From NCBI RefSeq assembly GCF_013167455.1, contig NZ_CP038328.1: a DNA stretch of 64,000 nucleotides; one strand, written 5' to 3'. Under the pieces are notes generated by a model, which had not been told where the DNA came from, made no database searches, and worked only from the letters and a program-made list of their open reading frames with translations. Positions within the stretch are counted from its first letter, which is position 1; each line of letters starts with the position of its first letter. The position numbers were made by a program, and so were the translations under genes. The stretch comes from Escherichia coli O157:H7 (GTDB lineage: Bacteria; Pseudomonadota; Gammaproteobacteria; Enterobacterales; Enterobacteriaceae). Below are positions 48,746-52,800 of this stretch, piece by piece.

Positions 48746-49018
48746 ATGGTCACAGTTAACCTTCATTGTCCCCGTTGCCAGTCCGTTCAGGTTTACCGTC
48801 GCGGGCAGAACCCCAAAAGACATGATCGATTCCGCGGCCGTGACTGTCACCGGGTATTTCAGCTCAGTTACTGTTACGAGCCCCGTAAACCGGGAGTTAA
48901 AGACCAAATCGCTGAAATGGCTTTCAACGGTGCCGGGGTTCGCTATACTGCCCGTACGCTGAAAATCGGCATTAATACAGTCATCCGAACTTTAAAAAAC
49001 TCTCGCCACGAAGAATAA
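48746..49018 (+). CDS. insA: IS1-family InsA (zinc-finger/HTH transposition regulator)
   Basis: 90-aa ORF MVTVNLHCPRCQSVQVYRRGQNPKRHDRFRGRDCHRVFQL...GINTVIRTLKNSRHEE; CxxC...CxxC motif; A-run (TTAAAAAACTC) at its 3' end like the IS1 programmed frameshift site. Confidence 0.85.
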   Translation: MVTVNLHCPRCQSVQVYRRGQNPKRHDRFRGRDCHRVFQLSYCYEPRKPGVKDQIAEMAFNGAGVRYTARTLKIGINTVIRTLKNSRHEE

Positions 49019-49452
49019 CGTCATCCCCGGTCGCTCATGCTGATGTGGCACTCATCTGCAAACTTAGTCAGCAATGGAGCTTTGTCGGCAGTAAAGCGCG
49101 ACAGCACTGGCTCTGGTACGTGTACAACACGAAAACTGGTGGTGTTCTGGCCTACACTTTTGGCCCCCGGACTGATGAAACCTGTCGTGAATTGCTGGCG
49201 CTGCTTACCCTTTTACCATCGGCATGTTGACCACTGACGAATGGGGTAGTTACGCTAGAGAGTTACCAAAGGAGAAGCATCTGACTGGTAAGATTTTTAC
49301 TCAGCACATTGAGCGTAACAATCTGACCCTGAGAACCCGAATCAAACGTCTGGCCCGCAGAACCATCTGTTTCTCGAGTTCTGTAGAACTTCATGAAAAA
49401 GTCATCGGTGCTTTTATCGAAAATATATGTTCTACTAATTGGAGTCATCACC
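49000..49452 (+). pseudogene. insB: IS1-family insB transposase reading frame, interrupted
   Basis: InsB-like segments split over two frames (49045..49230 ...QWSFVGSKARQHWLWYVYNTKTGGVLAYTFG; 49224..49538 MLTTDEWGSY...TQHIERNNLTLRTRIKRLARRTICFSSSVELHEKVIGAFIE); the second frame has no stop inside the element and reads through into flanking DNA. Confidence 0.6.
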
Positions 49453-49593
49453 CTTCTGATGAGCTTTCCTTGGATGATTACCAGACTGAATACACAGCCA
49501 AAGATTTTTACCTCATTCTGCTCTTTTTTCTCAAATGACATATATTATATTTTACATCATATTCATAGGCATATGACATTCCCCCGCCCCCCA

Positions 49594-49830
49594 TTATGTC
49601 ATTGTGGGTTGATGTTGGGCTTTCATAAAAAAATACATCTTTTTTGAACTAGCATTAATTATATTTACTTTATATATTAAAATATTTTCTCCATCTGGAA
49701 ATATTTTAGCCACACAATATAAAGCAGCTAAATCCGAATTACTTAAAAATATATTGTCATCACTCATAACTCCAGCCATTAAATGACTGGAGACTAAAGC
49801 AAGGAAATAACAACATTGTATTGCCTTCAT
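49594..49830 (-). CDS. small hydrophobic-N-terminus protein immediately downstream of rhs; candidate cognate immunity protein
   Basis: ATG at 49830, 1 nt after the rhs TAA (49832-49834), GGGAG about 10 nt upstream; 78 aa MKAIQCCYFLALVSSHLMAGVMSDDNIFLSNSDLAALYCVAKIFPDGENILIYKVNIINASSKKMYFFMKAQHQPTMT; AT-rich like the toxin tip. Confidence 0.6.
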   Translation of the reverse strand: MKAIQCCYFLALVSSHLMAGVMSDDNIFLSNSDLAALYCVAKIFPDGENILIYKVNIINASSKKMYFFMKAQHQPTMT

Positions 49831-49831
49831 T

Positions 49832-52800
49832 TTAATTACTCCCTTGCCTGATAATTGTAACTCCATTCCCTTTAGCTTTGGGATTATATTTTAGATAGGT
49901 GTTATTTGGTGTTCCCAAGTAACTACTGCATTCTTTTTTTCCCATTCCATTCATATAAGAATTCGTTAAATCTTTGCTTGAAAAATTTAGACTATCATAA
50001 ACATCATTTTCTTTTGTTACTTTATTTCCTTTATCGTCAGAGTAAAAACCGTGAGTGTGATAATCGCCTACTCTCTCTGAACCTTCAGGGCATTTTATAT
50101 TTCGCAAGTCTACACTATCATTATCATTTGAACTTATCGGATTCATGGGGAAATATTCACCTTGCTTCTTACATATTAGTCCACCATATTCTTTATTCTC
50201 GTTAATTGATTCTCCATTACACATTGCCAATGCAAATATTCCAATATCATCTATATTTTTTGATTTAAATTCATATAATCCTAATGGATCCATGCCATTC
50301 ACCGGGCTCAGCGGATATGTATACAGGTTCCATCCCCCCTTCAGCCCAATCGGATCCTGAGTGATATACCTCCCCTGCAGCGGGTCATAATAGCGGTGGC
50401 GGTTGTAATACAGGCCGGACTCCTCATCATACTGCTGCCCCGGCAGGCGGATAAGCTGCTGCAGCTGATGCGGGTTCTCTTCATTCAGCAGGTTGCCCCA
50501 CTCATCGTATTCTGCGCACCATTCTGTTGCCCCTTCCTTACTGATAAGGGCCAGCGGCAGGCCGCGATGGTCGCAGTGGTACAGGTGGATTTTTCGCGCC
50601 GGCGTGTATACCGGGTCCATCTGGCTTTGCATCTGCGCCACAGTCAGGCCGCACGATGCCAGCCAGCGGCGGCTTTCCTCACTCACCCGGTCAGCCAGGA
50701 TTTCACTTTCCAGCCGGTCGAGCATCTGCACCAGCACCGGCGGGAACACCACACTGCCACCGTCTTCGCCGCCGGACTGCTGAAGCGCATCCGCCAGGCT
50801 GCGGCGCTGCGTTTTCGCCAGCTCACCGGTGGCGGTTTCAACCCTGATGAGTGGCGTGAAGCTCCCCGGCTGATAAATCGTCTGGATGCGGGTTCTGTCG
50901 TTCTGTATTGTGGTCAGCCGGTCGCCGTCCCAGCCGTACCAGGTCACTTGCGGTTTCCGTGACAGCGACATCCAGCCCGTCAGGTCCCGTTCACGTCGCC
51001 ACACCCGTTTTGCCACCCTGCGGCCCAGCGGGTCGTAAAGATAGCGGCTTTCGACCAGCGGCTCTTCATATTGTGTCCGCGTGTAGTGCACCAGCCGGTG
51101 CTGACTGTCGTAATGGTACCGGTGAGTCCGCTCATCATCCGTGCGGATAACCCCTTCCGGGATGAGGTCGGTTTTCTCTGTCAGCCTGCCGTGACGGTCA
51201 TACCAGTAAAGATAGTGCGCGTCACGGGCGATACGGTTATCCGGCCACATGCTGAGGGTGCTGTCCGGGTGCAGCTCCGGGTCGGGCAGGCGGTTACCTG
51301 CCGGGTCCGTGGCATACGGGATGCGGATATCCAGATTCGCTGCGGTGGTGTGAACGCCGGTCAGCCTGCCGGAGTCGCTGTAGCTGTAACTCCGGGTCTG
51401 GCGCGGGCTGCTGATGCGGATGAGTTCGCCGTTGTCGTTCCAGGTGTAATCGCGGTCATACTGCAGGCTGTTCAGGTGCTGGCTCTGTAACTGCCCGGCA
51501 GGGGTATAAGCGGTGGTGAGTTCATAACGGCCGAATCTGCGCAGCGTTTTCCGGTGCAGGCGGTCGCGGGTGAAATCCACCAGCGGTGTGTCGCCGAGCT
51601 TCATGCCTGCCAGCCAGCCGCTGCCATAGGTCAGCCATTCCACGGCGGGCAGGCTGTCCGGTATACAGCGGTTCGCCAGCCCCTGCGCGTTGTAAGCGTG
51701 TCTGGTCTCATGCTGCCAGAGCAGTGCTTCCGTCTGCGGGTGATGCACCGTCTGACGCTCACCGGTCAGCCGGCCTTTCTCATCATACCCGTAATGCACC
51801 GTCACCCGGTGCCCTTCGCTGATATGGCTGATGTCTGTCAGCCAGCCGCGTTCGTCATACTGCCAGCGCTCTGCGGTTTCACCCTTCACGGTGCGGTGCG
51901 TGAGGCGGTCTGCTTCGTCATAGTGCCAGTGGGTGACCAGCCCCTCATCCTCGCTGCGGATAAGTTTGCCGGTCAGGTCGTGGTGATAACGCTGTGTGCG
52001 GCCGTCAAAGCCGGTTTCCTGTATCAGCCGGTCGAGTACATCGTAACGGAAGGTGGTGTGGCTGCCGTTTTCACTGGTCAGGCGGATGACCCGTCCGGCA
52101 GCATCGTATTCCATACTGCGCGTCAGACCGCCCTGCGTGGTACAGATGGCTTTTCCCCACGCATCGTACTGTGTCCCGTTTCTGCTGCCGTCCGGGGCAA
52201 TGACGGTGGTCAGGTCACCGGCGGCGTTGTATTCATACCGCGTTTCATGGCCCTGCGTGTCTTTCACGGCAATTAACTGTCCACGGCTGTCGTATGCGCG
52301 GTACTGACTCAGCCCTTCCTCGCGGTGCACCGCCGTCATCTGCCCGAAGCGGTCATGGTCATAACGGGTTACATAACCGGAACAGTCGGTGAAGCTCAGC
52401 AACTGACCGTAACGGCTCCACGTCATGGTTTTCCGGCTGCCGGTGGCATCTTCCGTTGCGCAGGGTAAGTCACTGTGTGGATTATCATAACGGTAGCGGG
52501 TGATATCGCCGTCAGGGGCAGTTTCCTGAATCAGACGGCCCCATTCATCATATTCCCGGCGTATTTCCAGCCCGTCAGGCCCGGTGGCTGACGTTAACTG
52601 GCTGTGGTGGTTATAGTAAAACGCCGATGCCCTGCCATCCGGCGTGGTGATGCGCGTGATGAGGCCCGTCACCACATCCGGGCTGTATTCTGTTGTCCTG
52701 CCTGCGGCATCCGTCTGTGCCCTGAGCCTGCCCACCGCGTCAAACTGACTCTGCGTGACGCTGCCGTCCGCGTGTTCCTTTTTCACCACCCGCTTCAGCC

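What the first reader, a model, noticed from the sequence alone, without database searches (positions are those of the whole stretch)
49594..49830. Coupled 78-aa ORF with hydrophobic N-terminus as candidate immunity protein
The ORF starts 1 nt after the rhs stop with a GGGAG Shine-Dalgarno inside the rhs 3' end, the usual arrangement for Rhs/CdiA immunity genes, and shares the AT-rich composition of the toxin tip. Its N-terminus (MKAIQCCYFLALVSSHLMAG) looks like a signal peptide or membrane anchor. If that is real, the protein acts in the envelope, which would imply the toxin attacks a periplasmic or membrane target rather than nucleic acid.
Basis: inference. Interest (0 to 1): 0.65.

Follow-up and report, generated by a model that had tools for sequence, protein, structure and literature searches.

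The report
Frameshifted Rhs immunity gene (dsORF-f3)
The small ORF after the rhs toxin gene is real and belongs to the toxin's cognate, probably exported, immunity family, but in this E. coli O157:H7 genome a one-base deletion has removed its conserved final third, so it is most likely a dead remnant.

Summary
A 78-codon ORF on the minus strand (49830..49594) starts 1 nt after the rhs stop, has GGGAG 8 nt upstream, is about 31% GC like the toxin tip, and has a hydrophobic N-terminus. The window is E. coli O157:H7.

RefSeq already names the ORF 'RHS element protein dsORF-f3' and flags it as a frameshifted pseudogene. The intact gene encodes 107 aa. O157:H7 has A6 where intact alleles have A7, so the last 43 residues are replaced by 14 unrelated ones. 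Those 43 residues hold 8 of the 10 invariant positions and three of the four beta-strands of the predicted fold.

Relatives at 25-50% identity lie directly after related DUF4329 (Tox-JAB-2) Rhs tips in other Enterobacterales and co-diverge with them. All of them keep a signal-peptide-like N-terminus. A wider, unnamed superfamily follows DUF4329 tips in other phyla, mostly but not always with a signal peptide.

So 'candidate immunity protein with an export signal' is supported for the family. The copy in this window is probably non-functional. The inference of a periplasmic target is plausible but unsettled. Of 2169 E. coli genomes carrying the module, at least 885 carry frameshift alleles. A 2020 in-silico paper already proposed this ORF (z5489) as the immunity gene.

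The parts
49832..54016 (-). rhs gene (1394 aa, PAAR-like N-terminus, YD-repeat core). RefSeq calls it 'rhsC'; it is z5488, 'RhsB' in PMC7216683. It is an orphan rhs between rpmE and yiiX.
49835..50278 (-). C-terminal toxin tip after the PLGL motif (148 aa), a DUF4329 / Tox-JAB-2 domain. The conserved motif residues E30, H74-T-H76, S100 and D103 are all present.
   Evidence: (Pfam E 4.5e-16); motif from Zhang 2012
49928..49930 (-). Cys codon in the toxin tip. All other E. coli alleles examined and all 5 close homologues have Tyr here (EYSSYLGTP).
49840..49844 (-). GGGAG Shine-Dalgarno inside the 3' end of rhs, 8 nt before the ATG
49594..49830 (-). The 78-codon ORF of the finding: codons 1-64 of dsORF-f3 followed by 14 out-of-frame codons (MYFFMKAQHQPTMT) and a stop
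49771..49830 (-). Codons 1-20, a signal-peptide-like segment (MK, h-region AIQCCYFLALVSS, c-region HLMA|G)
   Evidence: pLDDT below 50, outside the fold
49640..49645 (-). A6 tract (T6 on the + strand). Intact alleles have A7, so this is the frameshift site.
49627..49635 (-). TAT7 tract, which is T9 in most intact alleles. T8 and T7 variants give the other frameshift alleles.
49508..49639 (-). Out-of-frame but otherwise undamaged remnant of the last 43 codons (DVFFYESPTSTHNDIMGGGGMSYAYEYDVKYNICHLRKKSRMR*)
49508..49830 (-). Whole dsORF-f3 pseudogene as annotated by PGAP in EDL933 (EDL933_RS26035, 'frameshifted')
48746..49438 (+). Degenerate IS1 transposase remnant that bounds the module. It is present at the same place in every E. 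coli locus examined.

Best explanation
The ORF is the O157:H7 allele of dsORF-f3, the cognate immunity gene of the DUF4329 (Tox-JAB-2) toxin tip carried by this rhs gene.

Intact form. The gene is translationally coupled to rhs (stop, 1 nt, ATG; Shine-Dalgarno inside rhs). It encodes a 107-aa pre-protein. A Sec-type signal peptide of about 20 aa is inferred to send a mature domain of about 85 aa to the periplasm. That domain is predicted to be one helix packed on a four-stranded sheet, a cystatin/PepSY-like fold. It is inferred to bind and block incoming toxin delivered by sister cells.

This window. Loss of one A from an A7 run at codons 63-65 shifts the frame. The product keeps the signal peptide, the helix and strand 1. 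It loses strands 2-4, the invariant GGGG-x-Y-x-Y...C...M motif and the conserved basic C-terminus. The 78-aa protein is therefore most likely unable to protect, which makes the gene a recent pseudogene.

What is shown: the frameshift, the family and its linkage to the toxin tip, and the loss of the conserved part. What is inferred: export, inhibition by binding, and loss of function.
For: RefSeq annotates the same DNA as 'RHS element protein dsORF-f3, frameshifted'. Intact 107-aa alleles differ from the window only by A7 versus A6. The out-of-frame remnant still reads the full conserved C-terminus.

Relatives at 25-50% identity align to the end of the 107-aa frame. The invariant residues are L29, G81-84, Y87, Y89, C98 and M106, plus M1 in the 6-sequence alignment. 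Eight of these lie beyond the frameshift.

The relatives sit directly after DUF4329 tips in L007, L008, L010, L009, L012, Salmonella (L013, L016) and Hafnia (L017-19), either 1 nt after the stop or overlapping it by 4 nt. Toxin and downstream protein co-diverge: toxin 71-74% identity goes with 46-52%, and toxin about 50% goes with 30-39%. The tip occurs in 2170 and the ORF in 2169 of 5426 E. coli genomes.

Against: No experiment shows that dsORF-f3 neutralises the toxin, or that the truncated form fails to. The rhs/toxin ORF is still intact in O157:H7 and in the other frameshift lineages. That is odd if immunity is gone and the toxin is in use. Two independent -1 events (A6 and T8) give the same 78-aa reading frame in at least 885 genomes, which could mean the short form is tolerated or useful. 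Signal-peptide status rests on inspection and conservation, not on a trained predictor. The AF2 model has only moderate confidence.
Confidence: 0.75

Rival explanations
1. One reading: the 78-aa protein as encoded here is a working, envelope-located immunity protein.
For: The start, Shine-Dalgarno, signal peptide, helix and first strand are all retained. The same 78-aa frame arises independently from the T8 allele and is common: 306 plus 579 genomes. The toxin ORF is kept intact alongside it.
Against: It lacks 8 of the 10 invariant family residues and three of four predicted strands. No homologue in other genera ends near residue 78 except obvious fragments. The new 14-residue tail has no counterpart in any relative. 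O111:H8 carries a different frameshift (T7) that gives only 68 aa, so truncation length is not conserved.
Confidence: 0.1
2. The gene is a phase-variable or slippage-controlled switch. The A7 and T9 homopolymer runs change length by replication slippage, or RNA polymerase slips on them, so immunity is turned off and on. The O157 allele would then be one state of a reversible system.
For: Two homopolymer runs lie 6 nt apart inside the ORF. Five length states occur among genomes: A6/TAT7 in 306, A7/TAT7 in 281, A7/T9 in 802, A7/T8 in 579, plus T7. The downstream frame carries no further damage. From my own knowledge, not tested here, runs of 9 T/A are known sites of transcriptional slippage in E. 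coli.
Against: The alleles look lineage-fixed rather than flickering. All O157:H7 records have A6, two O111:H8 strains both have T7, and the Sanger-sequenced O103:H2 12009 has T8. In O157 the T-run is interrupted (TAT7) and the A-run is only 6, both too short for frequent slippage. AT-rich genes contain such runs by chance. Some T8 calls in long-read assemblies may be homopolymer errors.
Confidence: 0.08
3. dsORF-f3 is linked to the toxin tip but is not an immunity protein. It could be an exported accessory factor or a hitchhiking gene, with real immunity provided elsewhere or not needed.
For: Zhang et al. 2012 list a different family, Imm-NTF2-2, as the Tox-JAB-2 immunity in E. coli. The frequent loss of dsORF-f3 with the toxin retained would be painless if it were not the immunity gene.
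Against: It is the first and only gene between the tip and the next module in every locus, including orphan modules. It co-diverges with the tip. No second copy or other conserved neighbour exists (one place per genome). The same superfamily follows DUF4329 tips in several other phyla.
Confidence: 0.06
4. It is a chance ORF in AT-rich DNA.
For: It is short, has no Pfam or NCBIfam match, and gene callers disagree on its start and length.
Against: It has homologues at 25-50% identity in other genera with conserved motifs and conserved position. The shuffle test gives P about 0.007.
Confidence: 0.01

Closest known systems
RHS element protein dsORF-f3 (RefSeq WP_001612119.1 and WP_001323627.1, 107 aa)
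   Same: It is the same gene. The DNA is 99.5% identical to the intact allele in strain F8111-1SC3, at the same position after the same rhs tip.
   Different: The window copy has a 1-nt deletion (A6 for A7), so only residues 1-64 are shared. RefSeq marks it a pseudogene.
'RhsBI' (z5489) of EHEC EDL933, proposed in silico as the immunity protein of RhsB (z5488) in PMC7216683
   Same: It is the same locus and the same idea, a small ORF downstream of the DUF4329 Rhs. The paper even reports the same weak TMEM126 Pfam hit.
   Different: That paper used a 57-aa version. It did not note the frameshift, the signal peptide or any homologues, and it treated the toxin as an RNase.
Imm-NTF2-2, listed by Zhang et al. 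2012 as the immunity family of Tox-JAB-2 (E. coli only)
   Different: No Pfam model matches any of 20 superfamily members. The E. coli protein has no Trp, whereas Imm-NTF2-2 is defined by conserved Y and W. The predicted fold has one helix and four strands, smaller than NTF2.
Imm65, the lipoprotein immunity of the sister toxin clade Tox-JAB-1 (Zhang et al. 2012)
   Same: It is an exported immunity protein paired with a JAB-fold Rhs toxin.
   Different: Imm65 has a lipobox and occurs in Bacteroidetes. No sequence relation was tested. dsORF-f3 has no lipobox.
Periplasmic T6SS immunity proteins of cell-wall effectors (Tai/Tsi/Tgi type, e.g. Tgi2, PDB 4kt3_B) and PepSY / cystatin-type protease inhibitors
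   Different: There is only fold-level resemblance, with low scores for a very common small fold and no sequence match to the PepSY Pfam model. The partner toxin's activity is unknown.

Membership tests
Cognate immunity gene of an Rhs / polymorphic toxin module | First gene downstream of the toxin tip, on the same strand and tightly coupled | tested here: met
   Stop, 1 nt, ATG with GGGAG upstream. The same holds in 7 other loci.
Cognate immunity gene of an Rhs / polymorphic toxin module | Travels and co-varies with the toxin tip, including in orphan tip+immunity cassettes | tested here: met
   Co-divergence. Orphan modules in L012, L016 and L017. Tip in 2170 and ORF in 2169 E. coli genomes. 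Shared low GC.
Cognate immunity gene of an Rhs / polymorphic toxin module | Protein binds and neutralises the cognate toxin | not testable with these tools
   No experiment was found in the searched literature.
dsORF-f3 protein family (107-aa type) | Full-length protein with the conserved C-terminal block (GGGG-x-Y-x-Y ... C ... M-R/K) | tested here: not met
   The 78-aa ORF shares only residues 1-64. The block is present in the DNA but out of frame.
dsORF-f3 protein family (107-aa type) | Orthologous DNA at the same locus | tested here: met
   99.5-100% identity and the same flanks (rhs tip, IS1 remnant, yiiX).
Sec-exported (signal-peptide) protein | Positive n-region, hydrophobic h-region of about 10-15 residues, small residues at -3/-1, and a mature domain beginning after it | tested here: inconclusive
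   The sequence is MK + AIQCCYFLALVSS + HLMA|G. The best 11-residue window has mean Kyte-Doolittle hydropathy 2.08; the best 19-residue window has 1.55, below the usual transmembrane threshold. The feature is conserved in all 13 aligned relatives although the sequence is not. The AF2 model leaves residues 1-23 outside the fold. No SignalP or PhoA test was possible.
Imm-NTF2-2 (Pfam / Zhang 2012) | Match to the family profile; conserved Y and W | tested here: not met
   No Pfam hit even at E<=10 for the 107-aa form, and none among 20 superfamily members. The E. coli protein has no Trp.
PepSY domain | Match to the PepSY profile | tested here: not met
   No Pfam match. There is only weak structural similarity.
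Tox-JAB-2 / DUF4329 (upstream toxin tip) | Pfam DUF4329 match and the motif E, H[ST]H, S, D | tested here: met
   E 4.5e-16. E30, H74-T-H76, S100 and D103 are conserved across 19 diverse tips.
Tox-JAB-2 / DUF4329 (upstream toxin tip) | RNase/nuclease activity, as commonly annotated | not testable with these tools
   The papers read trace this to a prediction in Zhang 2012 or to Ma et al. 2017, which was not available to read. No assay was found in the searchable literature.
Phase-variable contingency gene | Homopolymer tract in the ORF with length polymorphism between strains | tested here: met
   A6/A7 and T7/T8/T9 alleles.
Phase-variable contingency gene | Reversible switching within a lineage or culture | not testable with these tools
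   The alleles appear fixed per serotype in the few lineages inspected.

The most novel reading that the evidence does not exclude
DUF4329/Tox-JAB-2 Rhs tips, routinely annotated as RNases, may in fact be metal-dependent hydrolases that act in the periplasm. They would be blocked there by a widespread, so far unnamed family of small exported cystatin/PepSY-like inhibitors, of which dsORF-f3 is a member. The almost invariant basic C-terminal residue and the GGGG loop of these inhibitors might engage the toxin's active site. The major EHEC lineages (O157:H7, O103:H2, O111:H8) have each independently lost this immunity while keeping the toxin gene.
Probability: 0.3. Interest if true: 0.6.

Novelty: new member of a known kind. 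Interest (0 to 1): 0.35.

Why it matters
For this genome, the result corrects a published in-silico assignment. The proposed 'RhsB immunity protein' of EHEC O157:H7 is a truncated pseudogene. O157:H7 may therefore be sensitive to the same toxin delivered by E. coli strains that carry the intact module, which are common: at least 1083 of 5426 complete genomes.

More generally, the immunity partner of a widespread toxin domain of unknown activity turns out to be a coherent family that is absent from Pfam and usually exported. That is the best available clue that these 'RNase' tips may work in the cell envelope, and it gives a simple experiment to test it.

Tried and rejected
- Pfam on the 78-aa ORF gave only a TMEM126 hit at E 0.045. 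This is noise, and it is the same hit that PMC7216683 over-interpreted.
- Pfam on the 107-aa form and on 13- and 20-member alignments found nothing. NCBIfam found nothing.
- Sequence searches of the PDB found nothing meaningful for the immunity protein or the toxin.
- Single-sequence AF2 of the 107-aa protein failed with pLDDT 38. Only the run with an alignment was usable.
- Literature searches for 'dsORF-f3' and for the original Rhs subfamily paper found nothing readable. The historical origin of the name (the RhsF element) therefore rests on my memory only.
- I looked for a correlation between conserved toxin cysteines and exported immunity. The three invariant Cys are limited to the enterobacterial/Acidovorax clade, so there is no general pattern.
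- I checked whether immunity genes without a signal peptide were start-codon artefacts. They are not.
- The promoter/terminator scan around the junction found no more sites than in shuffles.
- Searches were technical misfires (wrong frame, wrong argument or missing records) and carry no evidence.

Full report
**1. What is at the coordinates**

The window is E. coli O157:H7: a 951-nt stretch around the finding is 100% identical to EDL933 and many other O157:H7 chromosomes.

On the minus strand an rhs gene of 1394 codons (54016..49832) ends in ...IIRQGSN-TAA. One base later an ATG at 49830 opens a 78-codon ORF that ends at 49594. GGGAG lies 8 nt before that ATG, inside rhs. GC is 0.30-0.33 across the toxin tip, the ORF and the spacer up to a degenerate IS1, against 0.58-0.68 in the rhs core. 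An ORF this long is rare in shuffles of the AT-rich stretch (P about 0.007).

**2. The ORF is a frameshifted allele of a named gene**

RefSeq annotates exactly this DNA in EDL933 as 'RHS element protein dsORF-f3', pseudogene, 'frameshifted', spanning window 49830..49508. Other E. coli strains carry an intact 324-nt gene of 107 aa (WP_001612119.1, WP_001323627.1).

The alignment shows two homopolymer runs 6 nt apart:
- Intact alleles have A7 followed by T9, or A7 followed by TAT7.
- The window has A6 and TAT7.

After Lys64 the window reads MYFFMKAQHQPTMT-stop instead of (K)DVFFYESPTSTHNDIMGGGGMSYAYEYDVKYNICHLRKKSRMR. The displaced frame is otherwise undamaged, so the deletion is the only lesion.

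**3. Allele census**

Short queries centred on the tracts, scored for exact matches, gave these counts among the 2169 complete E. coli genomes that carry the locus:

| Allele | Genomes | Product |
|---|---|---|
| A6/TAT7 (this window) | 306 | frameshift, 78 aa |
| A7/TAT7 | 281 | intact, 107 aa |
| A7/T9 | 802 | intact, 107 aa |
| A7/T8 | 579 | frameshift, same 78-aa frame |
| other | 201 | includes A7/T7 (68 aa) |

The frameshift alleles are real and lineage-linked:
- The Sanger-sequenced O103:H2 strain 12009 and strain E2865 have T8.
- Two O111:H8 strains both have T7.
- In every case inspected, the rhs gene upstream is annotated intact.
- Other disruptions also exist, seen as junctions after NIINA and IS fusions.

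The toxin tip and the ORF are present together in essentially the same genomes, 2170 against 2169. However, at least 41% of carriers have a broken copy.

**4. The family and its link to the toxin**

The tip is a DUF4329 domain (Pfam E 4.5e-16). Zhang et al. 2012 call this Tox-JAB-2, with motif E, H[ST]H, S, D. All four elements are present.

An exhaustive HMMER search with the 107-aa protein found relatives at 29-50% identity that align through to residue 107. A profile search added Salmonella and Hafnia members.

- *Conserved residues.* The invariant positions are L29, G81-G84, Y87, Y89, C98 and M106, plus M1 in the 6-sequence alignment. Eight of these lie in the part lost in O157:H7.
- *Position.* In every context recovered, the relative lies directly after a DUF4329 tip, with stop+1 nt+ATG or an ATGA overlap. 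The contexts are full Rhs proteins (L007, L008, L010), a deleted rhs (L009), and orphan tip cassettes inside Rhs arrays in L012, Salmonella (L013, L016) and Hafnia (L017-19).
- *Co-divergence.* Toxin and partner diverge together: 71-74% against 46-52% identity, and about 50% against 30-39%.

This is the standard comparative signature of a cognate toxin-immunity pair. Actual neutralisation remains untested.

**5. Export signal and fold**

All 13 aligned relatives begin with M[KR], then a hydrophobic run of 9-15 residues, then small residues (LMA|G, SLS|G, CNA|F, CSA|F, ATS|G). The sequence of this segment is not conserved. In the E. coli protein the best 11-residue hydropathy window is 2.08. 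The best 19-residue window is 1.55, which is short of a typical membrane span.

AlphaFold2 with the 13-sequence alignment gave pLDDT 72. Residues 1-23 are unstructured, and the mature domain has a helix at 31-43 and four strands at 53-60, 63-70, 85-92 and 97-105.

- PepSY domains of YpeB/YpmB, and cystatins;
- NTF2-like proteins;
- many AFDB 'PepSY domain-containing' proteins.

These are weak, fold-level resemblances only. No Pfam, NCBIfam or PDB sequence match exists. The frameshift at codon 65 removes strands 2-4, so the 78-aa product cannot adopt this fold.

**6. A wider superfamily, and a caveat for the 'periplasmic target' inference**

A scan of one genome per species with the tip alignment returned 30 DUF4329 loci from Proteobacteria, Acidobacteriota, Spirochaetota, Myxococcota and others.

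- *One superfamily.* The first downstream ORFs are related to dsORF-f3. The family profile hits nine of them directly at E between 1e-13 and 1e-3. An in-set iterative search links 15; its E-values refer to a tiny database and are lenient.
- *Shared layout.* The members have a helix, a Tyr, strands, an RG/GGGG loop and a final hairpin. In 18 of 20 the very last residue is Arg or Lys.
- *Export signal.* Of the 15 linked members, 11 have a signal peptide or lipobox. Four (L026, L027, L030, L041) do not, nor do the motif-level relatives L028, L037 and L038. Upstream in-frame sequence cannot supply a signal for any of these.
- *Literature.* Zhang et al. note that the sister clade Tox-JAB-1 is paired with a lipoprotein immunity, Imm65. 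Salmonella SPI-6 DUF4329 Rhs proteins were reported with CdiI-like partners lacking a signal peptide.

So an extracytoplasmic site of action is a fair hypothesis for the enterobacterial subfamily, but it is not a safe generalisation. In the papers I could read, the 'RNase' label traces to a prediction (Zhang 2012) or to Ma et al. 2017, which I could not read. No assay appeared in the searchable literature.

**7. State of the module in O157:H7**

Besides the broken immunity gene, the O157 tip carries Cys (49930..49928) where all other E. coli alleles and all five close homologues have Tyr in EYSSYLGTP. Across 19 diverse tips that position is Y, F or H. The exact O157 segment occurs in 291 genomes, close to the 306 with A6. 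Both changes thus appear to mark the O157 lineage, although per-genome co-occurrence was not checked. The catalytic-motif residues are intact.

Possible explanations, none of which could be tested here:
- The whole module is decaying.
- The toxin is weakened.
- The orphan rhs is simply not used.

**8. Comparison with what is known, and verdict**

The locus is an ordinary orphan Rhs toxin-immunity module. The ORF is an already named gene, RefSeq already flags it as a pseudogene, and PMC7216683 already proposed z5489 (a 57-aa version) as the immunity protein 'RhsBI' without noticing the frameshift, the signal peptide or the homologues.

It is not a member of Imm-NTF2-2 or PepSY by sequence.

What this analysis adds:
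- The O157 copy lacks the conserved core.
- Three EHEC lineages carry independent frameshifts.
- DUF4329 tips across phyla are followed by one unnamed, mostly exported, cystatin-like family.

Interest is modest for the finding itself. It is somewhat higher for the family-level lead about where Tox-JAB-2 toxins act.

Noticed in passing
window 49928-49930 (-): The O157:H7 toxin tip has Cys where all other E. coli alleles and five close homologues have Tyr (EYSSYLGTP). The wider DUF4329 set has Y, F or H there. The exact O157 segment is in 291 genomes, against 306 with the A6 frameshift.
   Followed up: partly
L050 (O103:H2 12009), L052 (E2865), L006 and L051 (O111:H8): Other EHEC lineages carry different frameshifts in the same gene: T8 gives 78 aa and T7 gives 68 aa. 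The rhs gene is annotated intact in all of them.
   Followed up: partly
alignment A4 (20 immunity-family members): 18 of 20 proteins end exactly in Arg or Lys after a conserved RG/GGGG loop and hairpin. This may be a functional C-terminus.
   Followed up: no
L030, L031, L033 (downstream ORFs): The immunity proteins here consist of two tandem copies of the domain in one polypeptide. L031 and L033 have a signal peptide; L030 does not.
   Followed up: no
L026, L027, L028, L030, L037, L038, L041: Immunity-family members after closely similar DUF4329 tips lack any export signal, and no upstream in-frame extension is possible. This conflicts with a uniform periplasmic site of action.
   Followed up: partly
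L020: A contig labelled 'MAG: Lachnospiraceae bacterium' is 99% identical to the E. coli rhs tip plus intact dsORF-f3. It is probably a mis-binned E. coli contig.
   Followed up: no
window 48746-49453 (+): A degenerate IS1 (transposase annotated as frameshifted) sits about 55 nt beyond the end of the dsORF-f3 frame. It is at the identical position in every E. coli locus inspected, so it is an old part of the island. One strain (L005) has a further IS1F inserted into it.
   Followed up: partly
window 49594-49866 (-): Gene callers often start the ORF 12 codons upstream ([12 protein letters not shown]...), inside rhs, giving 90- or 119-aa 'proteins' in public databases. Homologues show that the MKAIQ start is the real one.
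   Followed up: yes
L044 (toxin C-terminus): This DUF4329 toxin ends in a long poly-Gln/Glu tail.
   Followed up: no
P0057: A 1983-aa protein matched 22 times by the signal-peptide part of the query. It is probably a low-complexity artefact.
   Followed up: no
P0013, P0014, P0006, P0051: These are further disrupted dsORF-f3 variants in E. coli, with junctions after residues ~60 or ~73 to unrelated sequence. One is fused to an IS200-like (PF01797) ORF.
   Followed up: no
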